IMG/VR virus record: IMGVR_UViG_3300025112_000016
Coordinates: 1 to 53,846 of that record
Reading direction: 5' to 3' (one strand)
DNA: 53,846 nucleotides
Origin: a virus
Taxonomy: Duplodnaviria > Caudoviricetes
The translations under genes were made by a program, and so were the position numbers. A model generated the notes under the pieces. That model saw nothing but the letters and a program-made list of their open reading frames with translations. It was not told the DNA's origin and ran no database searches. Positions 3,719 to 29,603 of this stretch are shown here, piece by piece. Every line of letters starts with the position of its first letter. Position 1 is the stretch's first letter.

Positions 3719-5398
3719 TTAAACGCCGCGAGGAGCTTCTTTAAAAATACGGTTTCTTCGGCGTCCGCCTGTGGTCATTGTAACACCACTATAAACTCCT
3801 CTTCGACTGCGCCCACCATCTGTTCCTACTCGAATCGATGTAAAGCTACTTTCTGCGGGTAGCATCCCTAATGTAGCGTGAATCCCCATCACGGAGCTAT
3901 CACAGTAATCGTCGTGTCTTCCAGTAGGTGCCCCAATTTTTTCTGTCTTTTGGGTAGCATCCATAACATATTCTAGTATAGAATGTTCGTTATACCATTT
4001 CGACATCAGTTTTTTATCCAACCCCAGAAGGTTATTGGGATTCGGAACCCGGACCTTGCCCTTCTGTATAAATGATACATAATCACGATAAACATATGTT
4101 TTCGTCCCTTTGGGTCCTCCTGTAAATATGAAAGGTATAAAGTGGATACTGTCGGGAATGCATTCTAAACGTATCTCCTGCTCAAAAGCGCCGCCAATAC
4201 CAGTAGCATCAATAATAATGCGTATGGCTCCAAAGCTTCTTGCAACTGCCATAATGCGTTCACGCTGGTATGGTATATCGTGTCCACCAGATTTAGGACC
4301 GATTTCTTCCAAATATATAAGTCTTGCAATGTTACCTGTCTCAGACTTCTCGGTAATCCAAACACTAATAACAGTGCTATTAACGGATTTACCAATATCC
4401 ACACCCACAGTACAATTGGAAAAATTCTCTCTGTCCGCGTCCTCGGGTCGTATGAAGGTATAGTCATCAAAACAATTCCTTAAGTATTTGTTATTGAACA
4501 CACTCGATACACTTTCTACAAATTCACATTCGTACTCTGTTTTCCAATGGATAGAATCTTCGCCCCATTCTATCATCTTATTCAACATTTCTTCTTCGTC
4601 ATATGGGGGGCTATATGCTTCTCCCTTTACAACTGCGTCTCTCCAATTGAAATGCAATCGTTCGAAAGTATCGGAATATCCTTCATCATAGAGATATCGA
4701 TGCATATGGTTTTCTTTACTTTTAGGTGTCCCTAGATTAATAAATGGCGCCTTATTCGCTATTATACACGGCTCTACATTATCTATAAAGAGCGAGTCAG
4801 CTATTAAAGGACTTTCATCTACTATTAAAAAGGTAGGGTGTTGACCTCGTATTGCTTGCCCCTGATTGCTTGGTGCAATAGGAGCACGACGCAATACTGT
4901 CCCCCCTTTCATCTTAATCGAAGGTTTGTTATGCAATTTGTAAGCTCCTATCAATGAATTTAAAAATACATTATCTCTAAAATGACGGTATACATAATTA
5001 AAAATCAAAGCTGCTTGGTCTTCGGTGGGAGCAATAACGAAAACTAAATCTCTAAAGCGGCGAAAAAACATCCAAACAACAACGGCCACCGAAAGAGCCC
5101 ACGACTTACCGCTACCCCGAGGTGCCAGAACAGCCATCTTACGTTGAACATTAGAATCTCCTTTGGGATATGTCAATGATTTGGTTATGATTTTCAATTG
5201 AAGCGGTCTTAACCTTAATGGTCTTTGATTAGCATCCACTAAATACGTTTCACAAAAGGCGCGGACCAGTTGTTCCATTTTAACTTCATCGCATCTTATC
5301 TCTTCGAAAAATGATTCCATATGAGCAGAATCAAAACTATTCTTGCCCGATATCGCTTTCTTCAGGTTCTTCGTTTCGTTCTTCACTGTCTTCATCAT
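3719..5398 (-). CDS. terL: Terminase large subunit
   Basis: LRPLQ Q-motif, Walker A APRGSGKS, Walker B FLIVDES, GTP coupling motif, RNase H-like GVDIG and HDDYCDS. Confidence 0.95.
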   Translation of the reverse strand: MMKTVKNETKNLKKAISGKNSFDSAHMESFFEEIRCDEVKMEQLVRAFCETYLVDANQRPLRLRPLQLKIITKSLTYPKGDSNVQRKMAVLAPRGSGKSWALSVAVVVWMFFRRFRDLVFVIAPTEDQAALIFNYVYRHFRDNVFLNSLIGAYKLHNKPSIKMKGGTVLRRAPIAPSNQGQAIRGQHPTFLIVDESPLIADSLFIDNVEPCIIANKAPFINLGTPKSKENHMHRYLYDEGYSDTFERLHFNWRDAVVKGEAYSPPYDEEEMLNKMIEWGEDSIHWKTEYECEFVESVSSVFNNKYLRNCFDDYTFIRPEDADRENFSNCTVGVDIGKSVNSTVISVWITEKSETGNIARLIYLEEIGPKSGGHDIPYQRERIMAVARSFGAIRIIIDATGIGGAFEQEIRLECIPDSIHFIPFIFTGGPKGTKTYVYRDYVSFIQKGKVRVPNPNNLLGLDKKLMSKWYNEHSILEYVMDATQKTEKIGAPTGRHDDYCDSSVMGIHATLGMLPAESSFTSIRVGTDGGRSRRGVYSGVTMTTGGRRRNRIFKEAPRGV

Positions 5399-7357: not shown

Positions 7358-7696
7358 TTAATCTAGCTTTTTGAGTTTCTCTAGTATTTCCTCTTCATTG
7401 TCGTCGTTACCATTCCTAAACGTACCTTTCCTTGTCTGTTCTATCTGACTATTCTGTTGTGCAGTCCATAATTCTAATACCTTATATATAATAACTAATG
7501 CAGGTGAACCTATAATCAAAAGAACCGACTTATAAGATTCTATGTCTTCTACTATCTCTGGATGACGAAATGCCATCGTAACCAAGAATATAGATAATCC
7601 TACCCAAGCCATAACAACTGGAGCTGCTACCATTATCATCATAAAATTAGCAAAGTTCCCATCAGGCGTAGCTGCATCTTTTTTATGATTGCTCAT
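7358..7696 (-). CDS. Two-TM membrane protein (holin-like candidate)
   Basis: Two hydrophobic helices and a charged C-terminus, in the late operon. Confidence 0.55.
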   Translation of the reverse strand: MSNHKKDAATPDGNFANFMMIMVAAPVVMAWVGLSIFLVTMAFRHPEIVEDIESYKSVLLIIGSPALVIIYKVLELWTAQQNSQIEQTRKGTFRNGNDDNEEEILEKLKKLD

Positions 7697-7902
7697 TTCT
7701 TCTCCTGTAATAATAACTTAATTTCTGCGAGAGCTATTTTTACCACATTCATATCCTCTGCATTCTTTTTATGGCGAGCTCCAAATTCGTTCTTCACTTC
7801 ATATAGTGAAAAAACCATAAAACGATATAAAGCATAAATTGCTCCAAGAAGGAGTATTAACGGTAATCCATAATCTTCGATTGCGACTAAAACATCTTCC
7901 AT
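7693..7902 (-). CDS. Single-TM membrane protein (holin-like candidate)
   Basis: YGLPLILLLGAIYALYRF followed by a coiled coil. GGAGGTGA SD upstream. Confidence 0.6.
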   Translation of the reverse strand: MEDVLVAIEDYGLPLILLLGAIYALYRFMVFSLYEVKNEFGARHKKNAEDMNVVKIALAEIKLLLQEKK

Positions 7903-7994
7903 TATTCACCTCCCTCCATCCTTATTCGAGGTATATCAAACTGTTGTTGAAACACATAATCCTCTAATTCTTCATCCCACTCTTCATTTGCCAT
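7902..7994 (-). CDS. 30-aa acidic leaderless micro-ORF
   Basis: MANEEWDEELEDYVFQQQFDIPRIRMEGGE. TATA about 21 nt upstream and TAATG coupling to the next gene. Confidence 0.45.
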   Translation of the reverse strand: MANEEWDEELEDYVFQQQFDIPRIRMEGGE

Positions 7995-8014
7995 ACTAAT
8001 ACTCTGTTTTTTTG

Positions 8015-8030
8015 TTATTTAAAGGTTTTC
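8015..8030 (-). promoter_or_regulatory. Archaeal BRE/TATA promoter
   Basis: Minus strand GAAAACCTTTAAATAA. Confidence 0.65.
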
Positions 8031-8106
8031 ATATTAGGCCATTCATCCACAAGATACTGATGCCCGCCAAGATAGCCAGAATAATTCTTATTGCGTCCAT
8101 TTGCAT
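8029..8106 (-). CDS. 25-aa single-TM micropeptide
   Basis: MQMDAIRIILAILAGISILWMNGLI, with AAGGGGTGGA SD and its own TATA (8141-8157). Confidence 0.45.
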   Translation of the reverse strand: MQMDAIRIILAILAGISILWMNGLI

Positions 8107-8140
8107 TATTTCCACCCCTTGCATTTCTTCTGGAGAACAA

Positions 8141-8157
8141 ATTATTTAAACCTTTGG
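8141..8157 (-). promoter_or_regulatory. Archaeal TATA promoter (leftward)
   Basis: Minus strand CCAAAGGTTTAAATAAT. Confidence 0.55.
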
Positions 8158-8165
8158 AGATACAG

Positions 8166-8234
8166 TATATTATTTCACATCGTATGCTCTAGTATATTAC
8201 TATACATAGTATATACTAAGTATAGCATATGCTT
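8166..8234. repeat. AT-rich palindromic element, copy 1 (copy 2 at 12953-13026)
   Basis: Shared blocks TATATTATTTCACAT, GTATATTA, TAGTATAT and TATAGCATATGCT in the same order. Confidence 0.7.
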
Positions 8235-8244
8235 AGCTATCTCC

Positions 8245-8258
8245 AAACCTTTATATAT
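8245..8258 (+). promoter_or_regulatory. Archaeal BRE/TATA promoter, leaderless Cas4-like gene
   Basis: AAACCTTTATATAT about 21 nt before ATG 8279. Confidence 0.7.
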
Positions 8259-8278
8259 CTGCAACCCTGTCCAAAAGT

Positions 8279-9199
8279 ATGACAAAAACTCAAGACACAT
8301 CGACTGATGTATCTTTCACCGTTACCTTAGACGAAGAAGGTGCCACGGTGCAGCCAGAAAATTGGGAACCAAGCGAACATCGTTTGTCTCCCTCTAAGAT
8401 AAATCTCTTCTTGCGATGCCCTCGAGCATTCTATTACAGGTATTTAGAAAAACTACCGGATAAACTAACCCTCCACTTATTCAGAGGTACCATTGTTCAT
8501 AATATTCTGGATGAGATATTTACGAAAGAATTCAAAACACCCCATAAATGGCGTAATGGTGAACCCCAAGAATGGGCCATCTTAGAATTTCGTAAAAAAT
8601 GGAAGGAACTCCACGACACGAAGGAATGGCTTTTCAAAAACCCCCAAATAGATGGCGATGTAATGGAACGCGAGACCATAGATTTGTTAGCCAACTTCTG
8701 TCATAAGATAGAAAGGAAGTTAAATGAATTGATGGACTGGGGCGTAGCAAAATCTCCATATCAAGCCTTATATCAATTAAAGCCGCGGTTTGCAGAACAA
8801 CGAATCCACAATAAAGAATTCAAACTGGTGGGTATCATCGATAGTGTGATACAAGATTTCGAAAAGAACATCTCAATCGTCGATTACAAGACCAGTAAAC
8901 GATATGGGCACTGGGTACCAGAAGATTACTACCGGCAATTGATTATATACGCACTCCTTTATTACAAGGATACGGGGGTAATGCCAATGTTCGCAGGTAT
9001 CGACTGGTTAAGATATGACGAATCATATTTTGTTCGCATAACGCAATCTGAAATCGATGAAGCGCAAGATTTGATACGTGGCATCCACGATGACCTTGGA
9101 AGACGCGGCAGCGATATCGAGAACTACGAACTAGTTCCACAGAAACTTTGTGAATGGTGTGCTTTCTATAAGAAACCGTGCGAACCGGGACCAACTTGA
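8279..9199 (+). CDS. Cas4/RecB-like PD-(D/E)XK exonuclease with Fe-S ligands
   Basis: LSPSKI..CPR, GTIVH, GIID, IVDYKT, QLIIY and C-terminal CEWC....C. Confidence 0.9.
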   Translation: MTKTQDTSTDVSFTVTLDEEGATVQPENWEPSEHRLSPSKINLFLRCPRAFYYRYLEKLPDKLTLHLFRGTIVHNILDEIFTKEFKTPHKWRNGEPQEWAILEFRKKWKELHDTKEWLFKNPQIDGDVMERETIDLLANFCHKIERKLNELMDWGVAKSPYQALYQLKPRFAEQRIHNKEFKLVGIIDSVIQDFEKNISIVDYKTSKRYGHWVPEDYYRQLIIYALLYYKDTGVMPMFAGIDWLRYDESYFVRITQSEIDEAQDLIRGIHDDLGRRGSDIENYELVPQKLCEWCAFYKKPCEPGPT

Positions 9200-9321
9200 G
9201 AGGAAAAAGATTAGTATGTTTATTCTGTGGCAAGGAATACATTCACTCATTGACCTTCAAAATGTTCGTGTGTGACGACTGTTATGAAAGTAACGCATTA
9301 AAGAAAGGCGGTAACCTTTAA
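9196..9321 (+). CDS. 41-aa Zn-finger microprotein
   Basis: TTG start overlapping the upstream stop. CLFC...CDDC. Confidence 0.5.
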   Translation: MRGKRLVCLFCGKEYIHSLTFKMFVCDDCYESNALKKGGNL

Positions 9322-9325
9322 ATAC
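9311..9325 (+). promoter_or_regulatory. Archaeal TATA promoter followed by a structured leader
   Basis: GTAACCTTTAAATAC, then stem GTGGGTT(9348)/AACCCAC(9409) and SD GAGGT. Confidence 0.55.
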
Positions 9326-9424
9326 AATCAGAACATAGAACATTACTGTGGGTTGCCACGCTATTGGTTAAAAATAGAAAATTGACAACTACAATATTAG
9401 GGAACCCACGCCAAGAGGTATAAT

Positions 9425-9856
9425 ATGACAAACAATACAACGGCAAACGCAACTACAAACGCAACAACGACAAGTAGCGAAACGAACTTACTTGAAGGAC
9501 TAATAGACCAATTAACGGCGGCACCGGAGCTTCTAGCTGTAGCCGCAGTAGTAGCTGGCGCTGGGGCATATGCTTATCTTCGTGTACCACAGTTCAGCTT
9601 TATAGTCAATAAATACGTTCCCTTCCTACTTGCAAGATACGAATCCGAAATAGACGACCTTATAGAAAAGAATCTGACAGTAATTCAGAAGAAGGCGTAC
9701 ACTAAACTGGACTCGAAGTTGCAACAGACGATGCGGGACAGTGTTCTTCGAGAAGTCATTATGTCCAACTACGACCACTATGACGACGAGTTCGCGAAGA
9801 CTGTAAAAGCAGAAATCCGTGGCGCTCTATCGTCTGCACGTGGCGAAAGTAAGTAA
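9425..9856 (+). CDS. Single-pass membrane protein with a sequon-rich N-terminus
   Basis: MTNNTTANATTNATTTSS has four NxT sequons, followed by TM LLAVAAVVAGAGAYAYL. Confidence 0.75.
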   Translation: MTNNTTANATTNATTTSSETNLLEGLIDQLTAAPELLAVAAVVAGAGAYAYLRVPQFSFIVNKYVPFLLARYESEIDDLIEKNLTVIQKKAYTKLDSKLQQTMRDSVLREVIMSNYDHYDDEFAKTVKAEIRGALSSARGESK

Positions 9857-10145
9857 ACCGCAGTACTACAATGCCCAATGGCATAACTGTATGAAATGCC
9901 GAACCCATTATATGAGCGAACAGCCTCACCTCAGGGCATACCTCTGTGATGATTGCTGGAAAAAGATGCCTCATTACCGTCCCCACCCTAAGACAATTAT
10001 AAGAGAACAACAAAAACCGTCAAAGGGTCCTACCTACCATATTCCTCATATTTTAAGTCAGATATCATTAAAGGAGGCCCTCCTCTATATCATAGGCAAC
10101 GGATTGTGCTTACTAATACTATCCTACTATCTGTGGTTCAAGTAA
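9819..10145 (+). CDS. Zn-finger protein with a C-terminal TM (start uncertain)
   Basis: CMKC...CDDC and a hydrophobic C-terminus. Confidence 0.45.
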   Translation: MALYRLHVAKVSKPQYYNAQWHNCMKCRTHYMSEQPHLRAYLCDDCWKKMPHYRPHPKTIIREQQKPSKGPTYHIPHILSQISLKEALLYIIGNGLCLLILSYYLWFK

Positions 10146-10249
10146 TGTCCTCCCTCCTTCCCTCCCGTTGTCCCCTTTGCGACGGCCGGGCCATAGTTAT
10201 CAACGAAAAAGGCCACTGGCGTTGTTGTAAGTGCAACCCTGTGAAATAA
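10145..10249 (+). CDS. 34-aa Zn-ribbon microprotein
   Basis: MSSLLPSRCPLCDGRAIVINEKGHWRCCKCNPVK, with TAATG coupling. Confidence 0.5.
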   Translation: MSSLLPSRCPLCDGRAIVINEKGHWRCCKCNPVK

Positions 10250-10407
10250 ACATATTTTTAAAAAACGGGTATATTTTCTTTTTTCACACTCGTGCCCAAT
10301 TTTTATAAAAGGCCTAATTCAAAATTTCTCCGATTTGTTTAAACCCCTGGGGGGAATCGGGTCACCTTCTAGCCTTATCTTTAGAGGGGGCCGTGACTAA
10401 ATGGCCT

Positions 10408-10423
10408 GAATTTCTTTATATAC
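10408..10423 (+). promoter_or_regulatory. Archaeal TATA promoter of the GC-rich RNA unit
   Basis: GAATTTCTTTATATAC. The predicted start near 10441-10446 coincides with the first helix. Confidence 0.6.
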
Positions 10424-10440
10424 CCCCGTGGCCCTGTATA

Positions 10441-10810
10441 CTTGCCTTGGACGTAGTCGCACATTGTCCCCCTATTAGTCAATAGGTTCCAAGTTAGGGC
10501 ACTAAAGTAGATAACTACCTCTGCCCCCGCAAGGGGTAAGAAGGAGGCAAGGTTGAAATAGATGGCAGGACAAGTGGTTGAGTATCACTTACCCACGGTT
10601 GGATGACCCAAAAATAAGATACCTCTCTGAAGAGTGACTTCTCCGAAGAGGGCGTGACAGTGCAGACCGAAGACTAGAGTAGCACTGAATAAGGATTAAT
10701 GTAAGAAATGCAATGTCCCCGAACAAAACTTCTGTGGTATCTTGTGACGAGTCTGTGGAGGAAGGTTGTGTAATGGCAACGACTCCGCTTACTACCCTGA
10801 GATGGGAAAG
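10441..10810 (+). ncRNA. Putative large structured RNA / 5' leader
   Basis: Helices CTTGCCTT(10441)/GAGGCAAG(10544), CCTATT/AATAGG, CCCC-GCAA-GGGG, AAGTGGT/ATCACTT, AAGATACC(10616)/GGTATCTT(10736), CAGTGC/GCACTG and GTGGAG/CTCCGC. No credible ORF. Confidence 0.6.
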
Positions 10811-10815
10811 AAGGA

Positions 10816-11199
10816 ATGACTGTGGCCCCAAACTATAGTTATGCCCGAATGCCCTACGACGGATTCGACCGAGTCCTCCAGGCGTCTGGATTTATGGGAC
10901 GTCCGCACGGAGCTCGAGTCGCTATGGGTCTGTCTTTTGTATCTCTGTCCAAGACAGAGGAACACAAGGCTTTCTTCGTAGCACTCGGTGCAGAAATGCG
11001 GAAGTTCCTGAAGTCCGGTATGTCGGTGGGACAGAAGGCCGGAGTCGTGGTCGCCAAGTCCGATGAGTCGGAACGAATGGCGTTCATCGAAGCAGTCCCT
11101 GAGGATGATTTGATGGCGCTAGCCGGAATGATTTCAGAACGATTGGGCCTCACGGCACCAGCTGAGTCGAAACCGTCTAAGGCAAAGGGCAAGAAGTAG
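10816..11199 (+). CDS. Hypothetical protein with a basic tail
   Basis: 127-aa ORF with protein-like composition and a purine-rich RBS. Confidence 0.7.
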   Translation: MTVAPNYSYARMPYDGFDRVLQASGFMGRPHGARVAMGLSFVSLSKTEEHKAFFVALGAEMRKFLKSGMSVGQKAGVVVAKSDESERMAFIEAVPEDDLMALAGMISERLGLTAPAESKPSKAKGKK

Positions 11200-11392
11200 A
11201 GTCCTTCGGGACTCGAAACTCGCCTGACCTGTCTGAGTTACCCACCTTGGTGGGAACTGTCGACGACCTAAGAACCAAAGTAACCCGGAATTATGGCGAC
11301 TCCTCAGGGGGTTCCTATGAATCCGATAAGGAAGGTATACGTGGCGCCGACTAATTGTGCCAACGGGGGCCTGGCCTGATTTGGCCCCCCAC
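11199..11392 (+). ncRNA. Structured intergenic RNA
   Basis: GAGTCC-TTCG-GGACTC (UUCG tetraloop), CCCACC/GGTGGG and GGGGGCC/GGCCCCC hairpins. Confidence 0.5.
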
Positions 11393-11403
11393 AGGATTTA
11401 ACT

Positions 11404-11694
11404 ATGACTACATACGAAGTAACAGAGAGGGTTGTAAATGCAGCCCGTGGTGAATTTCTCACTCTAGCTACAATGGAGAGGGACGAGTTCGGTGGATGGC
11501 ACCGAGCCCCTACTACCCACTACTTGCGAGAGGGAGACTGCGTGTTCCAGTGCAGAATTTTCGGAAGAAATGTTCTCACTGAAAAGGCCTCATCAGAGAT
11601 GTGTGACATCTTCGACAGAGTGCCAATGAAAACTCACTCCGAGTTAGCCGCCGAAACAAAGGCGATGACTTACAGGAACGGTCGACCAGAATAA
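11404..11694 (+). CDS. Hypothetical protein
   Basis: 96-aa ORF with AGGA upstream. Confidence 0.6.
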   Translation: MTTYEVTERVVNAARGEFLTLATMERDEFGGWHRAPTTHYLREGDCVFQCRIFGRNVLTEKASSEMCDIFDRVPMKTHSELAAETKAMTYRNGRPE

Positions 11695-11850
11695 GACTGA
11701 ACGAGTGATTTATACAGATACCACAGAGGAATGACGATTAATAACAGACGAAGGCCCCCAGGGGAGGCAGACCTGACCAGACACGAAAAGCGAACCGGGG
11801 GAATACCAGCGAGGCAAAAAAGGTAAGTCCTCGCAGGAGGGAAAAATGCA

Positions 11851-11879
11851 GACCTGAGCAAGTCTACCCAAACTGCTCA
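11851..11879 (+). ncRNA. Compact H-type pseudoknot
   Basis: GAC-CTGAGCAA-GTC-TACCCAAAC-TGCTCA: GAC/GTC stem whose loop TGAGCA pairs with TGCTCA. Confidence 0.55.
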
Positions 11880-11892
11880 CTTTACGCTTCTC

Positions 11893-12366
11893 CGTCTCTA
11901 GAGACGATGAGTTAATGCCGACGGCCCAGTGAAGGGCCCAAGGATAGGCAGGAGAAGATTACGATTCTCGAAGAACCGAGGTGACCAAGAACGTACGGAA
12001 GCCACCCTCGACGATGTCCTGTGTGAGGACTCACACCGCGAGGAAAAGGCACGGCAACGAAGTTGGCATCGGTGAAGAGATAGACCAGGATGGGCACGAA
12101 GTAACAAGAACATCTGGTCGAGATAAGACCACCGAAGAGACCTCTCTCAAGGAGTCCTAGGAATCCGATACAGAGAGGTGTGGCACTTAGACTTCATCGG
12201 ACTGCGATGAATACTGCTTGAGGTCCCGCAGCTCGAGTCGCTGTCAGACCCGGACTTAGTGCGGACAATCCCAGCGATGCGCGGCCTCGAAACCGTTCCT
12301 TGAGCAAGGACAAAGAAGTGCTGGGGCTGACCTAGCATAAGACCTCCTGCCCTAACCCGGCAGGGG
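11893..12366 (+). ncRNA. Putative large multi-domain structured ncRNA
   Basis: Nested helices ATGCCGAC(11915)/GTTGGCAT(12062), TCGGTG/CACCGA, GACCAG/CTGGTC, ACCTCTCT/AGAGAGGT, GGCACTT(12182)/AAGTGCT(12316), TTCATCG/CGATGAA, TCGCTG/CAGCGA and TCCTT/AAGGA. No credible ORF. Confidence 0.65.
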
Positions 12367-12422
12367 GCACCTGAGGATTAACACTGATACTGAATCAAAG
12401 GCTACGGAGCGCCCTTCTGCGC

Positions 12423-12446
12423 CCGGGGGCCACCCTGGACTTTTTT
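12423..12446 (+). terminator. GC hairpin plus T6 terminator
   Basis: CCGGGG..CCCTGG then TTTTTT, at the end of the GC-rich unit. Confidence 0.5.
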
Positions 12447-12449
12447 GAA

Positions 12450-12742
12450 GTGCTGCAGCAGACGACCCGAGCATATGAGAAAATGCTCGAGCGCTTGCGC
12501 TACAGCGGTCCGCTGGAGAGAGAAAACGCTGTGCTGCAGCAGACTACCGCAGCATAAAAAAAAAGAGCTATAGCAAAGCGCTGCAGCGGTCTACGCCAGC
12601 GAGAGAAAAGAGCTCCAGCGCTATGCTGCAGCGGTCTGCCACAGCGAGAAAACTCGGCTCGAGCAAAGTGCTGCAGCGGTTCGCCGCAGTGAGAAAGAAG
12701 CGCTCGAGCAAAGCGCTGCAGCGGTTCGCTGGTGTGAGAAAA
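12450..12742. repeat. Degenerate ~45-bp tandem repeats with a GCTGCAGC core
   Basis: GCTGCAGC at 12452, 12533, 12580, 12625, 12670 and 12715, with a variant at 12499. Each unit is followed by GAGAAAA-like and GCTCGAGC-like blocks. Confidence 0.85.
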
Positions 12743-12751
12743 GCTTGCTGT

Positions 12752-12888
12752 AAGCTGATGCTTGCTGTAAGCTGACGCTCGATGCTCACGAGCTGACGCT
12801 GGGGCTGTCACAAGCTGACGCTGGAAAATTGGAAGCTCACGCTGGGGCTGTCAAAGCTCACGCTGGAAGCTCTCAAGCTCACGCTGGA
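12752..12888. repeat. 21-bp-phased iteron-like repeats AGCT(G/C)ACGCT(GG)
   Basis: Copies at 12770, 12791, 12813, 12834, 12855 and 12876. Confidence 0.85.
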
Positions 12889-12952
12889 TGAACCTAAACT
12901 TGCTGGTTCTAGTTTGCTGAACTGGTTTGGTGTGTGTGCTCGAAGAAAGAGC

Positions 12953-13026
12953 TATATTATTTCACATACTGCTGGTATATTATAATACGCTAAGTAATAG
13001 TATATGCTTAGTATATAGCATATGCT
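12953..13026. repeat. AT-rich palindromic element, copy 2
   Basis: Homologous to 8166-8234. Lies inside an AT-rich stretch that extends to about 13120. Confidence 0.7.
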
Positions 13027-13164
13027 ATAGTAAGAAGATACCCTAAGCATTGTTATGTATATAAGCACTTACTAAGCGCAGCTATAATATAGATATTAAT
13101 ATGCTTTACTTAACATATCTAAGCAGTGCCGCAATTTTTGTAGCAGTCTACCGTGTCAGTTGCT

Positions 13165-13250
13165 AATGCTTCCAGCTGGCATACCTTTATATACTCTGCT
13201 ATCCCTAAAAAATTACCCTCCAGCAAAAAAAATACAAATGCTGGATTGAA
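13165..13250 (+). promoter_or_regulatory. Duplicated promoter plus leader hairpin, copy 1
   Basis: AATGCTTCCAGCT...ACCTTTATATACTCTGCTA.CCCTAAAAA then TCCAGCA/TGCTGGA. Near-identical to 14836-14920. Confidence 0.75.
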
Positions 13251-13254
13251 ACAA

Positions 13255-13623
13255 ATGAGCGAAAAAACAATAGAGCTGGAAGACATCCAGAAGTTGCTGC
13301 AGTGGCAACAAAAGCTGGAAGGCAAGACACCAGTGCTCGGTCTAACCGACAATGATAGCCTTCTACAAGAAGCGCTGCAGGAACTGTCAGCATATTGGTT
13401 CCGTGAAGAGCAGGCGACTCACCCTGCTGCCGTTGAATTATTTACCCGGCAGTTATTTGATTCGCTGCGAACTATGGACCCAGCAAACAGGAACAACGTG
13501 CTTAACCGCATCCGCTTGGAAGGTGGTTATCAGAGCACAGGGACTGGTGGAATTATCGGAGCCAACCGCTACCATTCAGATAGAAGTAAAGCAGATGGCA
13601 GTTTGATACGCAGGAGAAGATAA
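13255..13623 (+). CDS. Hypothetical early protein (start MSEKTI)
   Basis: Start placed after the promoter/leader. Helical protein. Confidence 0.7.
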   Translation: MSEKTIELEDIQKLLQWQQKLEGKTPVLGLTDNDSLLQEALQELSAYWFREEQATHPAAVELFTRQLFDSLRTMDPANRNNVLNRIRLEGGYQSTGTGGIIGANRYHSDRSKADGSLIRRRR

Positions 13624-13788
13624 ATGCGCTGTGTAGATGAAAGCATATGTAAAAGAAGTGATAGGTATGGACACTGCTCGAAATGCGACAAGCCAATCCT
13701 GGTAGAAGAGCTATATGAATGCCAGCACTGTCGATGTGTGATATCGCTCGGTAAAGAGTGTATTAATTGCTATGGAGATGAAATATGA
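13624..13788 (+). CDS. 54-aa Cys-rich microprotein
   Basis: MRCVDESICKRSDRYGHCSKCDKPILVEELYECQHCRCVISLGKECINCYGDEI. Confidence 0.5.
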   Translation: MRCVDESICKRSDRYGHCSKCDKPILVEELYECQHCRCVISLGKECINCYGDEI

Positions 13789-13922
13789 AGCAAGAAAAGA
13801 AATGTAAGTTGCTGTGTGGCAAACCAGCATTAAAATGTTGGCAAGCTGCTGATATGTGTAAAGAGTGCTATAAAGTCCATCAAAGAGCAATGGATAATGT
13901 AATGAGCACAGGACACTTCTAA
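13785..13922 (+). CDS. 45-aa Zn-finger microprotein
   Basis: MKQEKKCKLLCGKPALKCWQAADMCKECYKVH..., with ATGA overlap. Confidence 0.5.
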   Translation: MKQEKKCKLLCGKPALKCWQAADMCKECYKVHQRAMDNVMSTGHF

Positions 13923-14032
13923 TGAGCTGGATAGAATTTATAAGATGGCAATGCTTAAATCAAATTGCTATAATGAAAAGGATGAAATAGCAATCATCAC
14001 AAAAATGCTAAAAATGAAAGGAGGCAAAGCAA

Positions 14033-14239
14033 ATGGACAACAAAGAGCTAGATTTGACACACAATGACAGCACACCTAATTTCCCCGCTATAAAAGATGC
14101 GTTGATAGCAATTCATTCAGATGGAGAGCAATTCGACTGTGGACTAGCGTGGCAAGGAGGCTGTGGAGCAGCAATGCATTCACCTGCTAATATGAAAGTG
14201 CTCAATGAAATCATCGAAGTGCTAGAAGGCTACTATTAA
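14033..14239 (+). CDS. Hypothetical protein
   Basis: 68-aa ORF with a GGAGG SD. Confidence 0.65.
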   Translation: MDNKELDLTHNDSTPNFPAIKDALIAIHSDGEQFDCGLAWQGGCGAAMHSPANMKVLNEIIEVLEGYY

Positions 14240-14306
14240 TGAAGCAATGGCACAACCTGAAAGCATATGTAAAAGAAGTGCTAGGTATGGATTTTTGGAA
14301 ACAGCA

Positions 14307-14423
14307 ATGATTAGAATACACTGCTCGAAATGCGACAAGCCAATCCTGGTAAAAAAGCTAAAAAAAGAACAGCTTTGTTACTACTGCTGGGATTCAGGGT
14401 CACGAGGTATTTACAGCAAATGA
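14307..14423 (+). CDS. 38-aa Zn-finger microprotein
   Basis: MIRIHCSKCDKPILVKKLKKEQLCYYCWDSGSRGIYSK. Confidence 0.5.
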   Translation: MIRIHCSKCDKPILVKKLKKEQLCYYCWDSGSRGIYSK

Positions 14424-14558
14424 TAAAAAACAGTGGAAAGGAATGGAGTGAGCGTCTCACCAATACAAATGCTCGTTTGTTTCGGGCTCGCTCTATTCCC
14501 CACAAATGCTCGGAGCAACCGAGTCTTTTTATACTTACAGCCCTTTATGGAGTCAACA

Positions 14559-14825
14559 ATGCTAATATGTGAAGAATGCAGCGATTTGCCCAACCATCCA
14601 CGTCCATTGAAACCTGTGTTTCAATATCAAACGCTGGCTATTGGGGAAGGTCGCTGGACTATGGTAACTGATAGAGCAATTAATGGTAGCATTCATTGTG
14701 CTACGTGTGGATTAGTATATGCTGATTCAAGTGATAAGAAGCTAACGGATAGAATGTTAAAGCTGTTGACCGATGCAAATGCTGATACTCTCGAAAGTGC
14801 TGCAGTGGAGGACGAAGATGCTTAA
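14559..14825 (+). CDS. Zn-ribbon protein with an acidic tail
   Basis: MLICEEC...HCATCG. GGAG SD precedes the chosen start. Confidence 0.6.
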   Translation: MLICEECSDLPNHPRPLKPVFQYQTLAIGEGRWTMVTDRAINGSIHCATCGLVYADSSDKKLTDRMLKLLTDANADTLESAAVEDEDA

Positions 14826-14835
14826 GCTGAGAACA

Positions 14836-14920
14836 AATGCTTCCAGCTTGCCAACCTTTATATACTCTGCTACCCCTAAAAATTTACTTCTCAGCGGATA
14901 TTTTACAACCGCTGGATTCA
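14836..14920 (+). promoter_or_regulatory. Duplicated promoter plus leader hairpin, copy 2
   Basis: TTTATATA at 14857 and hairpin CAGCGG/CCGCTG. Homologous to 13165-13250. Confidence 0.75.
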
Positions 14921-14932
14921 ACCAAAATAGCA

Positions 14933-16672
14933 ATGCCTGAAAACGTAGCAATCAAATGCGAACTGTGTGAAGGGGATGTCCCAGCCGGTGAAGAAATTCA
15001 CAGCACTTCAAAATATGAAGCCATCTGTGATATGTGCTATACTTCGATGTGGAGCTGTGATTATTGTAATGAATTAAAGCCTGACGATGCAGAGTGCTGG
15101 GAAGATATTGGCCGGAATAACGTTTGTCAAGGTTGCTATGAAGATAATAGCTTCTGTGATTGCTATGGATGTTCGCTGCTAATAAATACAGACCAACACG
15201 AGTATTTCGAAGCAAATGGAGACACGTGCTGTGATGGTTGTGCAGATAGCGTTGAAATGGACCAGTGCTGTAATTGTGGAACCGATGTTTATTTCAATGA
15301 AGTTTACAGCGACTGTTGGCAAGATTCTAGCCAATGTTATGATTGCTATAATACCTCAGAAGAGCACATATCAAGTAGAGTAACAACCGCTATCGACAAA
15401 GCAGATGTTACACTCGCTGACCATTATGTGTTAATGCGAGCAGCTAAAGCCAAACTAGCACAAAAATACCAGAGAGAGCTGTATTATTTTATGGACTGGT
15501 ATTATCGAGGCGATGCTGCACATTATAGTAACACTGATTTGTATTTAATCAAATCAGATAGAGGATTTGGAGCAGGATTTGGATTTCACGAGAGCGAAAT
15601 AAAAATAGCATCTCAGACCTTCCGCACATTTGCAGATTATCTCAAGGATATGATGCAGCGGGACCTGTTTATTGTAGAGCATAAGAAGTATGGGCTGTAT
15701 CACCCACTGCGTGACATTTTTAAGAGCTGTATTACCTATTATAATCGCTCAAAAGGCGGTCAAGTGCTAGGAAGTGACCTTCCATTAGAGCAGGTAGGTA
15801 AAAATTGGCTCGGTTGGTCGATAGAACAAATCAATGTGAATGCTGTGGTGCAGATGTTACAGATAAATAAGACCGATGATGGAGCAGATTTGAAGCGTGC
15901 TTTAACTACTGTGTTCAGTCGCTCGTATAAGAATAGAATACCAGCACAATATCCAGATGATTCACCGTTTATGATTACGCTGGGCAAATATAGAACCAAT
16001 GCTACTTGCACTACGCTACCTATAAAGATTGGATTCGACCCAATGCTGTTTCAACAGGTAGCAGAATTTAATGGTGCTGTAGGCAGTTGTCAATGTAAAA
16101 GCAATGCAGACAGTTACGGTCACGGATTTATGGACTTAGCAACTAATCCACATCTTTGGCTGTTAATTTATGATACTAGCGGTGAAAGACTGATAGGACG
16201 CTCGGTTCTTAAGTTTATGAAACCAGCAGATGACTGGGCAGATAAGCAAACCACGACCTACATAGCACCATCCAGGATTTATCTAAGCGATTATACCCAA
16301 GCAAAGGCAGAAGTATATGCTGCGGCATTTAGAGCAATAGATGATTGGGCAAAAAGCGTTTTTAAAGATTATAAGCTGGTAGGACACACCTATTCCCGGC
16401 ACGATACACCAACGCTGGACTATCTAAAGGGAGCACCCAATATTAAATTTAACGAATCAGAAAAAGCACTGTATACACAGTGGTGGATTCCATTTTGGCT
16501 GGATAAACCCTCCAGTGATGAAGCTAATTTCACATATTATCAAGATGAAGATGCCCGAGCACAAGTTACACACGCTCAGGGCAATGATTTAGGAGCAGAT
16601 TATGCTGCTCGGGAATATTTAAGAGCGAGCGCCTACAGGCTAGTGGAGGTAACACAAACAAATGAGCAATGA
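14933..16672 (+). CDS. Multi-Zn-finger protein with an uncharacterised C-terminal domain (GSCQ...IGRS...SRIY)
   Basis: Eight CxxC pairs in the first ~140 aa. Start MPENVA follows the leader. Confidence 0.75.
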   Translation: MPENVAIKCELCEGDVPAGEEIHSTSKYEAICDMCYTSMWSCDYCNELKPDDAECWEDIGRNNVCQGCYEDNSFCDCYGCSLLINTDQHEYFEANGDTCCDGCADSVEMDQCCNCGTDVYFNEVYSDCWQDSSQCYDCYNTSEEHISSRVTTAIDKADVTLADHYVLMRAAKAKLAQKYQRELYYFMDWYYRGDAAHYSNTDLYLIKSDRGFGAGFGFHESEIKIASQTFRTFADYLKDMMQRDLFIVEHKKYGLYHPLRDIFKSCITYYNRSKGGQVLGSDLPLEQVGKNWLGWSIEQINVNAVVQMLQINKTDDGADLKRALTTVFSRSYKNRIPAQYPDDSPFMITLGKYRTNATCTTLPIKIGFDPMLFQQVAEFNGAVGSCQCKSNADSYGHGFMDLATNPHLWLLIYDTSGERLIGRSVLKFMKPADDWADKQTTTYIAPSRIYLSDYTQAKAEVYAAAFRAIDDWAKSVFKDYKLVGHTYSRHDTPTLDYLKGAPNIKFNESEKALYTQWWIPFWLDKPSSDEANFTYYQDEDARAQVTHAQGNDLGADYAAREYLRASAYRLVEVTQTNEQ

Positions 16673-27917: not shown

Positions 27918-29314
27918 GTGATTTTGAAATAGAAGATTTAGTAAGATACTTTCACAATGTAAAAAATAACAAAGGTGAATTGGTACCCATTATTGGAGAA
28001 GATAAACTAGCTGTAACATCAGTGTTAGCTTATTTATTAGAAGATACCAATTTTATGATTAACGCATACAGTGGGACAGGCAAGACTGTTATTATGAATG
28101 CAGTATTCCAACTGTTAGAGAACACGGGCATTCCTTATGTTGTTATTGAACAGTTATCTGATACAGCATTGTGGTATGATATGGAAAGGATAAACAATGC
28201 ACGTTTCATTGCTATTCCTGAAGCACAGAAATGTCCCGAGAGTATCATTGAAATTTTAAAGACGTGGGCTGATGACCGACCTGCAGAAAGAAGACGCACT
28301 GATGTCACTATTCAGGACATACGACGACAGACACTTCATCCTAAATTTGTTTTTATGTGCAAAGCAGTGGAAAACACACGCGGTAATCTTTTTCTGGATG
28401 CAGAATTGGAACGTCGTTATATGATAACCCATACCAATCCCACAGTTAAACAGACAGAAGATGTGCTCAAGCAGAAACTTAGGGCTGCATCATCTCCCGA
28501 TGGAGATTTACAAACGATGAGTGATGAAGAAATAAGTGGATTAAAGAAACATATAGTAGATTGTATCGTCCAGCGTGATGATTCACAGGCAGTTAAGATA
28601 AGAAATCCTTGTGCTCCATTTTTGTTTGATATTATCCCTACACTATTTCCTATTGCTAGAAGTAAAGTACATTACTTCTTAAAGATAATAAATGCCGTAG
28701 CCCGTTTCTTCCCTGATGATATAATGAGGGTAGAGAGGGAGGATGAAACATACGGATTGATAACTCCTAAACATAATTGGTTAGCAACTCAAATATATAT
28801 TGATACCTTTGTTACCGAATGTTTGCAGATGCCATCGCACGGCATTGATATACTTCACCTCATTCCAGATAGCGAAATGGATAGCTACGGTATGATAAGC
28901 AGTGACGTTACAAAGATGTCCACTAAAGAAATTCAACAAGCAGCTCGGGCTGCAGGTCTTCCCTTTGCTCAGAAAAACATCAACCCGTTGCTACAATCAT
29001 TGGTAATGTTAGGTTTCCTGGAGATGGAGGAAAGTGATAAGAAGAAGCGGTCCTTCTTTAAATCACCACTGATTAGAGAACCCAGTACCAAAATCGATTG
29101 GGCTGTTTTAATGGGAGCCACTCAAGAATTAGTAAGAGATAGCTGGCCCGAAATAGCTGATGAATATATCACCACCCACTGTAATGAAGTGCCAGTTACT
29201 AATCCCTTCACGCAGGAAAAGGTGATACTGACTGCCGATTCTACAGTTTCTCCTAAAAAGAAACCAGATTACGAAACGTCCACAGCAGACTATGGAGAAT
29301 GGTTGAATGAGTAA
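27914..29314 (+). CDS. MCM-like AAA+ replicative helicase (divergent)
   Basis: Walker A AYSGTGKT, LSDTALWY, Walker B variant IAIPE, arginine finger DAELERR, and a wHTH-like C-terminus. Confidence 0.65.
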   Translation: MSDFEIEDLVRYFHNVKNNKGELVPIIGEDKLAVTSVLAYLLEDTNFMINAYSGTGKTVIMNAVFQLLENTGIPYVVIEQLSDTALWYDMERINNARFIAIPEAQKCPESIIEILKTWADDRPAERRRTDVTIQDIRRQTLHPKFVFMCKAVENTRGNLFLDAELERRYMITHTNPTVKQTEDVLKQKLRAASSPDGDLQTMSDEEISGLKKHIVDCIVQRDDSQAVKIRNPCAPFLFDIIPTLFPIARSKVHYFLKIINAVARFFPDDIMRVEREDETYGLITPKHNWLATQIYIDTFVTECLQMPSHGIDILHLIPDSEMDSYGMISSDVTKMSTKEIQQAARAAGLPFAQKNINPLLQSLVMLGFLEMEESDKKKRSFFKSPLIREPSTKIDWAVLMGATQELVRDSWPEIADEYITTHCNEVPVTNPFTQEKVILTADSTVSPKKKPDYETSTADYGEWLNE

Positions 29315-29603
29315 AATACGATTACCTTATGCACCTCGTGGTGAAATGTTTGCATTGGTCAAAGAATTAAGCGGAGGCTCGCGCTTAATAGCTGTATGTG
29401 AAGATAACAAGACTCGGATGATAAGAATCGGAGGCCGTCTTAAAAAAAAAGTATGGGTACGACAGGGAGACCTGCTTATAATAAAAAAATGGACTGTCCA
29501 AGAGGATTCAAAAGGCGATTTGGTTTATCGTTATATTAAAACTCAGCAAGAAGTTTTAAAAAGAGACGGCCTACTCCCTGAAAATATGGATATTAAACTA
29601 TGA
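29307..29603 (+). CDS. eif1a: Archaeal translation initiation factor aIF-1A
   Basis: IRLP..GEMFALV..LSGGSR...CEDNKTRMIRIGGRLKKKVWVRQGDLLII..W..Q..KGDLVYRY. Confidence 0.93.
   Translation: MSKIRLPYAPRGEMFALVKELSGGSRLIAVCEDNKTRMIRIGGRLKKKVWVRQGDLLIIKKWTVQEDSKGDLVYRYIKTQQEVLKRDGLLPENMDIKL

What the first reader, a model, noticed from the sequence alone, without database searches (positions are those of the whole stretch)
10408..12446. A 2-kb GC-rich transcription unit that is about two-thirds structured non-coding RNA
Seen: TATA at 10415, hairpin-T6 at 12423-12446, only two credible ORFs, and three blocks (10441-10810, 11199-11392, about 11700-12420) tiled with nested helices, G-U pairs, GCAA and UUCG loops and purine-rich linkers. 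The genome is otherwise AT-rich and gene-dense. Known: bacterial phages carry large RNAs (GOLLD, ROOL); I recognise no such family here. Inference: an undescribed archaeal-virus RNA or RNP system expressed immediately on entry (decoy, scaffold, antitermination or anti-defence), with the two orphan proteins as partners. Best candidate for a new system.
Basis: partly seen in the sequence, partly recalled or inferred. Interest (0 to 1): 0.88.

Follow-up and report, generated by a model that had tools for sequence, protein, structure and literature searches.

The report
Heavily folded archaeal-virus messenger RNA
A marine, probably archaeal, tailed virus carries a conserved 2-kb two-gene message that appears folded from end to end, including inside one gene, and none of its RNA parts or proteins is catalogued.

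Summary
The unit is real and conserved. The order TATA box, long leader, 127-aa gene, spacer, 96-aa gene, long 3' region, hairpin-T6 recurs in 22 metagenome loci and 2 IMG/VR contigs. Both ORFs are true genes without a known family. Rfam finds nothing.

"Two-thirds structured non-coding RNA" is only partly right. In the window, the leader, the spacer and the first half of the 3' region fold no better than shuffles (z -1.5, -1.1, 0.05). The 3' block is lineage-specific and indel-ridden.

Structure is nevertheless real:
- In relatives the leader has 102 consensus pairs, 35 with compensatory changes (0 of 500 shuffles reach this).
- A covariance model built from those relatives finds the window's leader (E 7e-4).
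- The most folded part is the 127-aa coding sequence (z -7 to -8, also against synonymous-codon shuffles, in all clades).
- A 14+5-bp long-range helix joins the leader to the first nucleotides after the second stop codon. It shows compensatory changes between clades.
- The 3' region holds a covarying H-type pseudoknot. This scan has met apparently similar ('coremin-like') knots in many phages before.

Best reading: a cis-structured, stabilised bicistronic mRNA, not a GOLLD-like RNA. An RNP role and early timing are untested.

The parts
10233..10343 (+). Conserved non-coding stretch upstream of the unit, with T-runs and TATA-like words. It is more conserved than the genes.
   Evidence: blastn finds 83-89% identity over window 10166-10343 in group B loci, against about 70% over the CDS.
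10415..10422 (+). TATA box (TTTATATA) of the unit.
   Evidence: The same word stands 579-679 nt before the start codon in 7 group B loci. Two RNA-library contigs begin at 10456 and 10458, which is a weak hint only.
10456..10815 (+). 5' leader, about 360 nt here, 479 nt in L008 and 560-660 nt in group B.
   Evidence: No conserved ORF. In group B the leader has 102 consensus pairs, 35 with changes on both sides. The window's own z is only -1.5.
10495..10747 (+). Leader core, homologous to the group B leader core.
   Evidence: Covariance model R1 (7 group B sequences) gives this as the only hit in the window on both strands: 17.2 bits, E 7e-4, full model length.
10729..10747 (+). 5' strand of the long-range helix (conserved word GUGGUAUCUUGUGA). 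It has an alternative local partner at 10616-10628.
   Evidence: The local partner appears in the leader-only fold and in the CM alignment.
10750..10793 (+). Two-tier hairpin just upstream of the 127-aa gene, with a conserved loop.
   Evidence: z -2.93, 2 of 200 shuffles as good. The stem covaries: G-C to C-G in 3 of 12 sequences, plus U-A/U-G and G-C/G-U changes (helices 19-20). Group C has a different stem at the same place.
10816..11199 (+). 127-aa gene whose mRNA is the most structured part of the unit. The true start may be GTG 10822.
   Evidence: Third-codon-position differences are 2-4 times those at positions 1 and 2. z is -8.2 and -7.2, and -8.3 against synonymous-codon shuffles. Across 13 sequences there are 68 consensus pairs, 14 compensatory. 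L009 has CTA in place of ATG 10816.
11200..11403 (+). Intergenic spacer made of hairpins. The last hairpin (11365-11389) abuts the AGGA before the 96-aa gene.
   Evidence: 17 pairs are shared by all clades, 8 of them compensatory. The overall z is -1.07.
11404..11694 (+). 96-aa gene.
   Evidence: Conserved in 10 aligned homologues at 33-63% identity. z is -3.1, and -3.6 against synonymous-codon shuffles.
11710..11729 (+). 3' strand of the long-range helix, beginning 16 nt after the stop codon of the 96-aa gene.
   Evidence: In the fold of 10456-12446, 10729-10742 pairs with 11716-11729 and 10743-10747 with 11710-11714. Pair probabilities are 0.97-0.999 for 13 of the 14 pairs examined and 0.615 for the last.
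11695..12446 (+). 3' region: lineage-specific, modular and indel-prone. Only the pseudoknot and the last roughly 45 nt are shared with other clades.
   Evidence: z is 0.05 for 11695-12070 and -3.19 for 12071-12446.
11851..11882 (+). H-type pseudoknot: S1 GAC/GUC, S2 GAGCA/UGCUC, linker ending in AAAC.
   Evidence: The only match in the window. 18 of 20 distinct family copies keep all five S2 pairs, with compensatory changes at 4 of 5 positions. 70 of 116 exact 14-mer hits in IMG/VR carry the matching 3' half.
12423..12446 (+). Terminator-like hairpin plus T6.
   Evidence: The sequence is conserved into groups B and C. Group B has only T4.

Best explanation
The stretch is one bicistronic messenger RNA of a marine tailed virus with a probably archaeal host. 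It encodes two orphan proteins, and selection keeps the RNA folded along nearly its whole length.

Shown:
- The gene order and both proteins are conserved.
- Helices covary in the leader (in relatives), in the spacer and inside the 127-aa coding sequence.
- Synonymous sites of that gene are constrained to keep the fold.
- The 3' region holds a covarying H-type pseudoknot.
- The leader and the first nucleotides after the second stop codon are complementary, and this changes in step between clades.

Inferred:
- The long-range helix closes both genes into one roughly 1-kb domain.
- The leader word GUGGUAUCU can pair either locally (10616-10628) or with the distal site, so the RNA may switch state once the whole coding part has been transcribed.
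- The fold and the pseudoknot(s) protect the message from host exonucleases and endonucleases and tune translation of the two genes.
- The variable 3' modules behind the pseudoknot(s) ride along as stabilisers or as processed by-products.
For: Conservation of the unit:
- 22 of 374 candidate metagenome stretches encode a relative. In every locus long enough to show it, the gene order is the same.

Coding status:
- Differences at codon positions 1, 2 and 3 are 18.5, 15.3 and 50.0% for W against L011, and 33.1, 28.2 and 61.3% for W against L026.

Fold of the 127-aa CDS:
- z -8.16 (0 of 50) and -7.20 (0 of 100).
- 7 of 7 homologues tested have z -3.8 to -6.4.
- Against synonymous-codon shuffles, z is -8.3, -5.7, -4.4 and -3.4 in four clade representatives. 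Three other genes of the window give -1.4, -2.9 and -2.2.
- 68 consensus pairs exist. 14 have changes on both sides, against 5.7+-1.5 in shuffles (0 of 500) and 2-9 in slid controls.

Leader:
- In 12 group B sequences, 98.3% of cells are paired against 87.7% in shuffles.
- 35 pairs are compensatory against 23.0+-2.4 in shuffles (0 of 500) and 5-9 in slid controls.
- CM R1 finds the window's leader at E 7e-4.

Spacer:
- 8 of 17 consensus pairs are compensatory.

Long-range helix:
- In 8 of 8 group A and B loci tested, the longest leader-by-tail helix is the same pair of elements, 12-14 bp. Shuffled tails reach this length in 0-17 of 300 trials.
- Between groups A and B the pairs change A-U to U-A, and U-A to U.G to C-G.
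- Pair probability is 0.97-0.999 in the full-length fold.
- The helix is present in the MFE of L014 and L011.

Pseudoknot.

Strand: the + strand folds better than the - strand (-8.2 against -3.0 for the CDS), and G.U intermediates are on the + strand.

RNA libraries: three runs of one study hold contigs at 10458-10721, 10456-10665 and 10745-10916.
Against: - The window's own leader, spacer and 11695-12070 fold no better than shuffles.
- The window's leader cannot be tested for covariation on its own. Of 27 differences from L009, most fall in unpaired or variable parts, 4 keep a predicted pair and 5 break one.
- The leader and CDS structures were derived from the same alignments on which the pairs were counted, which inflates the counts.
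- Group B sequences are related, so the shuffle control overstates significance.
- The long-range helix is individually modest (shuffles reach it in 1 of 300 for W and up to 17 of 300 for L015). It is not in the MFE of L018 and is not significant in group C (8-10 bp, 45-249 of 300).
- The 3' block differs entirely between clades. Near-identical strains lose one strand of helices predicted in the window (the 67-77-nt deletion in L002, L007, L009 and X4), so no global 3' fold is supported.
- Transcription is not proven. The RNA-library contigs have depth 2-4, come from one study, and may be DNA carry-over.
- The stabilising and regulatory functions are inference only.
Confidence: 0.55

Rival explanations
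1. The non-coding blocks are free-standing, trans-acting large RNAs, or one RNP with the 127-aa and 96-aa proteins, acting as decoy, scaffold or anti-defence factor.
For: - The leader of relatives is 560-660 nt, with about 100 conserved pairs and conserved loop sequences.
- Group B has a 142-nt almost invariant element in its 3' region, while neighbouring third codon positions differ by 49%.
- The only RNA-library contigs on the unit itself lie on the leader and the first 100 nt of the gene.
- The proteins are orphans, always linked to these RNAs.
Against: - No terminator or processing site separates the leader from the gene.
- The leader's last hairpin and the long-range helix tie it physically to the coding part.
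- The blocks are modular and partly dispensable between strains.
- The 3' element of group B is absent from the window (nhmmer E 0.37).
- The proteins show no RNA-binding fold or family.
Confidence: 0.17
2. The 3' region works like a flavivirus 3' UTR. A host 5'-3' exonuclease degrades the message until it stalls at the pseudoknot(s), leaving stable non-coding RNAs (about 590 nt in the window, nested sets in group B) that have a function of their own.
For: - The pseudoknot covaries and is widespread in viral contigs. Of the 70 full copies, 58 lie outside long open frames.
- Group B1 has four copies, at 4986, 5024, 5329 and 5504 in L011. The first two sit before the near-invariant core, and each later copy sits before the next stretch or the terminator.
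- It shares a 3-bp S1, a loop-to-spacer pairing and the AAAC linker with the coremin motif, which stalls Xrn1 (PMC10520033 and PMC10321173, passages read).
Against: - No exonuclease test exists for this knot.
- The loop does not fit the YGAD/YGNNAD rule of coremin.
- The module behind the knot is not conserved between clades.
Confidence: 0.12
3. The function is at DNA level or in replication. The unit is read towards the adjacent repeat arrays and AT-rich stretch (12447-13120), and its transcript or its hairpins serve origin function, for example R-loop priming in the manner of ColE1 RNA II (recalled).
For: - Tandem 45-nt and 21/43-nt repeats start right after the T6 and are conserved in relatives.
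- The cumulative GC skew has its minimum near 9-10 kb.
- The repeat region folds well on both strands (z -3.5 and -4.6).
- The RNA strand is purine-rich (AT skew +0.22, GC skew +0.09 in 11001-12000).
Against: - The folds are strand-asymmetric with G.U pairs on the + strand, which fits RNA.
- Two conserved genes lie inside the unit.
- The skew minimum also coincides with the switch of gene orientation.
Confidence: 0.06
4. The non-coding blocks of the window are mostly fast-evolving filler with chance hairpins. Only a few short elements (the start-proximal hairpin, the pseudoknot and the terminator) are functional.
For: - z-scores are near zero for three of four non-coding stretches.
- Clades share about 50% identity in blocks 1 and 3.
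- Frequent indels and replacements occur between strains.
- Short local duplications exist (10908-10923 / 12227-12242 and 11313-11328 / 12155-12170).
Against: - Helix-level covariation in the leader of relatives is far above the controls.
- The CM matches the window's leader.
- Indels remove whole helices rather than random pieces.
- The blocks keep high GC in an AT-rich genome.
Confidence: 0.1

Closest known systems
Coremin motif (xrRNA-C) and its Watson-Crick form (xrRNA-WCC) of plant and other RNA viruses (PMC10520033 and PMC10321173; passages read)
   Same: It is a compact knot of 26-32 nt. It has a 3-bp G/C-closed first stem, and the hairpin loop pairs with the strand behind a short linker that ends in AAAC. 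It sits in untranslated or intergenic RNA. Earlier reports of this scan describe apparently similar knots in many phages.
   Different: - Here S2 has 5 Watson-Crick pairs, against 3 in xrRNA-WCC.
- The loop is 8 nt (CUGAGCAA) and does not fit YGAD/YGNNAD.
- The required downstream hairpin hp2 is not conserved.
- The host would lack Xrn1.
- Exonuclease resistance is untested.
Flavivirus genome ends: tandem xrRNAs giving sfRNA, and 5'-3' cyclisation sequences (established knowledge, recalled; PMC13483245 and PMC7385498 seen in a search listing only)
   Same: Knots stand at the head of a structured 3' region, and a long-range 5'-3' pairing encloses the coding part.
   Different: This is a DNA virus of a prokaryote and an mRNA, not a genome. 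The knot is of another type. Nothing here is shown experimentally.
   Same: They are large, GC-enriched, covarying non-coding RNA in viral DNA.
   Different: There is no match to any Rfam model. The RNA here is the untranslated and translated parts of one mRNA, not a separate gene. It is modular and variable between close strains.
Processing or closing stems that pair sequences flanking an operon, such as rRNA operon stems in bacteria and archaea (recalled)
   Same: A helix formed by sequences about 1 kb apart brackets the functional part of the transcript.
   Different: It brackets two protein genes. No bulge-helix-bulge or RNase III signature was seen, and no processing was shown.

Membership tests
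Any Rfam 15 family (including GOLLD, ROOL, riboswitches, ribozymes, leaders) | A match to the family covariance model at or near its gathering score. | tested here: not met
   - Window at gathering threshold: only a tRNA.
- 10000-13200 at E<=1: nothing.
- Six relatives' loci, 41,818 bases, at E<=5: two hits at E 1.1, 25 and 23 bits against cut-offs of 65.6 and 75.2.
- 66 nt around the pseudoknot: one 8.5-bit hit at E 8.5.
Coremin / xrRNA-C | First hairpin with a 3-bp stem and a loop fitting YGAD or YGNNAD (PMC10520033). | tested here: not met
   The stem GAC/GUC is present. The loop CUGAGCAA (8 nt) does not fit either consensus.
Coremin / xrRNA-WCC | Antiparallel Watson-Crick pairing between the hairpin loop and the spacer (S2). 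| tested here: met
   The 5-bp S2 GAGCA/UGCUC is kept in 18 of 20 distinct copies, with compensatory changes at 4 of 5 positions. The published S2 has 3 pairs.
Coremin / xrRNA-C | A second hairpin (hp2) directly behind the spacer, needed for Xrn1 resistance. | tested here: inconclusive
   In the window a hairpin-forming stretch follows at about 11897-11910. It lies in the 67-77-nt segment that L002, L007, L009 and X4 lack.
Coremin / xrRNA-C | Stalls a 5'-3' exoribonuclease. | not testable with these tools
   This needs an in-vitro digestion.
Protein-coding gene (127-aa and 96-aa ORFs) | Excess of third-codon-position change and conservation of the reading frame in relatives. | tested here: met
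   For the 127-aa ORF. For the 96-aa ORF: an open, alignable frame in 10 homologues; its codon positions were not counted.
Known protein families (Pfam, PHROGs, NCBIfam) for the two proteins | A profile match. | tested here: not met
   No family was found. The Atlas gave no usable hit. No Foldseek match in the PDB reached E<=0.001 for the 96-aa model.
Terminator (hairpin plus T-run; oligo-T in archaea, recalled) | A G+C-rich stem followed by at least 5 T. | tested here: met
   12423-12438 has 6 pairs (5 G-C), followed by T6. Group B has T4 and group C T7.

The most novel reading that the evidence does not exclude
An archaeal DNA virus builds its message like an RNA-virus genome. A covarying 5'-3' long-range helix cyclises the coding part, and the coding sequence is itself a conserved RNA domain. 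Coremin-like knots at the head of exchangeable 3' modules stall a host 5'-3' exonuclease. The result would be stable, sfRNA-like non-coding RNAs (and perhaps a free leader RNA) that act in trans, possibly together with the two orphan proteins.
Probability: 0.15. Interest if true: 0.85.

Novelty: new variant of a known kind. Interest (0 to 1): 0.62.

Why it matters
- Archaeal mRNAs are mostly leaderless or short-leadered (recalled), and almost nothing is known about RNA structure in archaeal viruses. My searches found no description of this unit or of its knot.
- This is a compact, conserved test case for three questions: how a prokaryotic virus protects and regulates a message by structure; whether a coding sequence can be kept as an RNA domain by synonymous selection; and whether the small knot seen in many viral contigs is an exonuclease roadblock outside eukaryotes.
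- It also supplies two orphan proteins that are always linked to these RNAs.

Tried and rejected
- Hidden CDS or altered genetic code: rejected. All frames have many stops of all three kinds. No ORF of the leader or 3' block is conserved. The N-terminal 'extensions' of some database homologues are the covarying hairpin read through by gene callers.
- Known RNA family: rejected.
- CRISPR-like array of the repeated motif: rejected. Spacing is irregular, at 38, 305 and 175 nt.
- Hammerhead or C/D-box readings of the motif: considered from memory and dropped. The core words do not fit and Rfam gave nothing.
- Homology of the window's 3' block to the 142-nt near-invariant element of group B: not found. 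nhmmer gave E 0.37 at unrelated places, and two MAFFT runs gave different registers.
- Function of the proteins from structure: the 127-aa model is too poor (pLDDT 45.7). The 96-aa model (65.6) gave only matches with E>=0.29. The Atlas gave nothing.
- Search for the start-proximal hairpin elsewhere in IMG/VR: 26 hits, about what chance allows, and only one is the known relative.
- blastn and tblastn against named phages: no DNA match. PolB gave only about 21% identity hits, so no named relative exists.
- RNA libraries: no contig covers 11000-13000 in X1-X3. This is no evidence of absence.
- RNA.duplexfold on long pieces gave uninterpretable global duplexes. It was replaced by a longest-helix test with shuffles.
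- Supplementary files of papers were closed and not seen. Those of PMC10520033 and PMC10321173 may list further coremin variants that bear on the comparison.
- Papers: PMC10520033 and PMC10321173 were read as passages found by term. All other papers named were seen only in search listings.
Full report
WHAT THE WINDOW IS. The window is a whole IMG/VR virus record of 53,846 bases, linear, estimated 76% complete. It encodes a large terminase, a portal, a PD-(D/E)XK nuclease, a family B polymerase, a B12-dependent ribonucleotide reductase and a DNA methylase. It also encodes a small ORF (29307-29603) that passes the NCBIfam cut-off of an archaeal aIF-1A subfamily (106.9 bits against 91). An archaeal host is therefore likely but inferred. 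No named phage is close: there is no DNA match, and PolB hits have about 21% identity.

THE OBSERVATION. These points stand:
- TTTATATA at 10415-10422.
- The hairpin 12423-12438 followed by T6.
- The two ORFs.
- The GC island: 0.52-0.54 in 11001-13000 against 0.32-0.46 in the other 1-kb bins.
- The GCAA and UUCG loops.
Every frame of 10300-12900 has 27-44 stops of all three kinds, so no change of code opens a hidden gene. Rfam gives nothing in 10000-13200 at E<=1 and only a tRNA in the whole window.

RELATIVES.
- The 127-aa protein has 22 unnamed homologues among 42 candidates in the protein collection.
- An alignment of them found 22 related loci among 374 candidate stretches of JGI metagenome contigs. 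IMG/VR held two contigs.
- The loci fall into three groups. Group A is the window, L007, L008 and L009 (87-100% protein identity). Group B is L010-L025 (72-81%). Group C is L026-L028 (53-57%).
- Wherever the contig is long enough, the order is the same: nuclease, membrane protein, small zinc-ribbon genes, long gap, 127-aa gene, gap, 96-aa gene, long gap, repeats, 156-aa gene.

THE TWO ORFS ARE GENES. For the 127-aa ORF, differences pile up at third codon positions: 18.5, 15.3 and 50.0% for W against L011, and 33.1, 28.2 and 61.3% for W against L026. The 96-aa ORF is open and alignable in 10 homologues at 33-63% identity. Neither has a Pfam, PHROGs or NCBIfam family. Structure prediction gave low to moderate confidence (pLDDT 45.7 all-helical; 65.6 beta plus two helices) and no Foldseek match at E<=0.001. 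L009 has CTA where the window has ATG 10816, so the start is probably GTG 10822, 8 nt behind AAGGA.

FOLDING ENERGY. Against dinucleotide shuffles on the + strand:
- leader: z -1.51 (2 of 50 shuffles as good)
- spacer: z -1.07 (5 of 50)
- 11695-12070: z +0.05 (26 of 50)
- 12071-12446: z -3.19 (0 of 50)
- 127-aa CDS: z -8.16 (0 of 50); the fold tool gave -7.20 (0 of 100)
The - strand of the CDS gives only -2.98. All 7 homologous CDS tested give -3.8 to -6.4. Shuffling synonymous codons, which keeps protein, codon usage and GC, gives z -8.3 (W), -5.7 (L013), -4.4 (L011) and -3.4 (L026). Three other genes of the window give -1.4, -2.9 and -2.2. Leaders of relatives give -1.1 to -3.9.

COVARIATION.
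- CDS. In 13 sequences RNAalifold finds 68 shared pairs. They include a long-range stem that pairs the codons of ARMP..DG with those of the lysine-rich tail. 14 pairs have changes on both sides, against 5.7+-1.5 in 500 column shuffles (0 reach 14) and 2-9 in slid controls.
- Leader of group B. In 12 sequences there are 102 pairs in 21 helices. 98.3% of cells are paired, against 87.7% in shuffles. 35 pairs have changes on both sides, against 23.0+-2.4 in shuffles (0 of 500) and 5-9 in slid controls.
- Spacer. 17 pairs are common to all clades, 8 of them compensatory. The last hairpin before the AGGA of the 96-aa gene has four different stems.
- Caveats. The structures were predicted on the same alignments, the sequences are related, and the window's own leader has too few variants to test.
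- Link to the window. A covariance model of the group B leader core (7 sequences, 201 positions, 47 pairs) matched the window once, at the homologous place 10495-10747 (17.2 bits, E 7e-4). It matched L008 at E 2.6e-4. E-values from this tool are rough.
- Modularity. Leaders differ by whole helices. L008 and L009 carry about 115 nt at window 10748 that group B also has and the window lacks.

A LONG-RANGE HELIX.
- A self-comparison showed that 11716-11727, which starts 22 nt after the second stop codon, is the exact complement of the conserved leader word at 10731-10742.
- In 8 of 8 group A and B loci tested, the longest helix between the whole leader and the first 60 nt after that stop is this same pair of elements, 12-14 bp. 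Shuffled tails reach that length in 0-17 of 300 trials.
- Between groups the pairs change in step: A-U to U-A, and U-A through U.G (L009) to C-G.
- In the fold of the whole transcript (10456-12446, -719.3 kcal/mol), 10729-10747 pairs with 11710-11729. Probabilities are 0.97-0.999 for 13 of the 14 pairs examined.
- The helix is also in the MFE of L014 and L011 but not of L018.
- In group C the leader is predicted to pair with the region just after the stop, but the test is not significant.
- The same leader word pairs locally with 10616-10628 in the leader-only fold and in the CM alignment. Two mutually exclusive states are therefore possible. This is inference.

THE 3' REGION.
- It is 728 nt from stop to hairpin here, 579-734 nt in group B and about 147 nt in group C. 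Between groups it is unalignable, at about 50% identity.
- Near-identical strains differ by a 67-77-nt deletion at 11882-11959 (L002, L007, L009, X4) and a replacement of 12247-12383 (X4). The deletion removes one strand of helices that the window's fold predicts. One global fold is therefore not supported.
- Group B has a 142-nt nearly invariant element that nhmmer does not find in the window.
- What is shared is the last roughly 45 nt and a repeated + strand motif, GACCYGAGCAAGUC, 2-30 nt, AAACUGCUC. There is one copy here (11851-11882), three or four in group B, and one with a nested hairpin in group C.
- The motif reads as an H-type pseudoknot (S1 GAC/GUC, S2 GAGCA/UGCUC). 18 of 20 distinct copies keep all five S2 pairs, with compensatory changes at four positions and U.G intermediates on the + strand.
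- The motif is not private to this family. 58 of the 70 lie outside long open frames.
- Rfam has no such family, and the 14-mer occurs in no paper of the library.
- Earlier reports of this scan describe 26-30-nt 'coremin-like' pseudoknots between genes of many phages. I could not see their sequences, so identity with this motif is likely but unchecked.
- Compared with the published coremin motif, it shares the 3-bp first stem, the loop-to-spacer pairing and the AAAC linker. It does not fit the loop rule, and its exonuclease resistance is untested.

EXPRESSION. Three metatranscriptome runs of one study hold small shares of the stretch. Laid on 7500-15000, they give contigs at 10458-10721 and 10456-10665 (no mismatch) and at 10745-10916, whose loose end matches the 115-nt insert of L008. 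One run also gave contigs at 7781-7903 and 9678-9855. Depth is 2-4. Two contigs starting at 10456 and 10458, 34-36 nt behind the TATA box, fit a start there. The tool warns that DNA can be present in RNA libraries and that contigs cannot show ends, so this is a weak hint.

READING. The evidence fits one conserved mRNA that is kept folded. The parts in order are a modular leader, a helix enclosing both genes, a coding sequence that is itself an RNA domain, hairpins before the second gene, a knot, and exchangeable modules before the terminator. Stabilisation and translational control are the most economical functions (confidence 0.55). A free RNA or RNP, an sfRNA-like product, an origin function and partial filler remain as rivals. 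It is not a member of any catalogued family. I rate it a new variant of a known kind, namely structured viral messages with UTR elements, in a setting (an archaeal DNA virus) where none has been described in the papers I could search.

Noticed in passing
window 12447-13120: Directly behind the T6 lie 45-nt tandem repeats (12560-12729, 3.8 copies), 17-, 21- and 43-nt repeats (12743-12888) and an AT-rich stretch with 18-nt repeats (12985-13033). They are conserved in relatives and fold well on both strands (z -3.5 and -4.6). This may be a replication origin or a protein-binding array. A knot-like hairpin without S1 sits at 12464-12488.
   Followed up: partly
window 10233-10343: A non-coding stretch upstream of the TATA box is more conserved (83-89% to group B) than the neighbouring genes (about 70%). 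Part of it is kept even in group C.
   Followed up: partly
L011 5156-5297; L013 1424-1565; L015 2331-2472; L018 3581-3722: A 142-nt element in the 3' region of group B is almost invariant between lineages whose third codon positions differ by 49%. It has no codon pattern and no Rfam match, and it is absent from the window.
   Followed up: partly
window 10748; 11882-11959; 12247-12383; L007 848-934: Near-identical strains differ by clean indels. About 115 nt are present in L008, L009 and an RNA contig but absent here. 67-77 nt are present here and in L008 but absent in L002, L007, L009 and X4, flanked by a short direct repeat. One segment is replaced by 64 nt in X4. L007 has an extra roughly 90 nt near window 10239.
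   Followed up: partly
window 10908-10923 / 12227-12242 and 11313-11328 / 12155-12170: Two 16-nt words of the 3' block repeat words of the 127-aa gene and of the spacer (15 of 16 identical). This is more than I expect by chance in 2.9 kb. They may be local duplications or competing pairing partners.
   Followed up: no
window 29307-29603: A virus-encoded archaeal-type translation initiation factor aIF-1A (NCBIfam NF003084, 106.9 bits against a cut-off of 91).
   Followed up: partly
window 9819-10249: Two small cysteine-rich ORFs (108 aa with a hydrophobic tail; 47 aa with CxxC pairs) are conserved in groups A and B just upstream of the unit. Neither has a known family.
   Followed up: no
L031-L145 (IMG/VR stretches): The pseudoknot word occurs with its matching 3' half in 70 of the 116 exact 14-mer occurrences found in the 115 stretches. 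The linker is usually 3 nt plus AAAC. In 29 of 66 cases it lies within 30 nt behind a long open frame on the same strand.
   Followed up: partly
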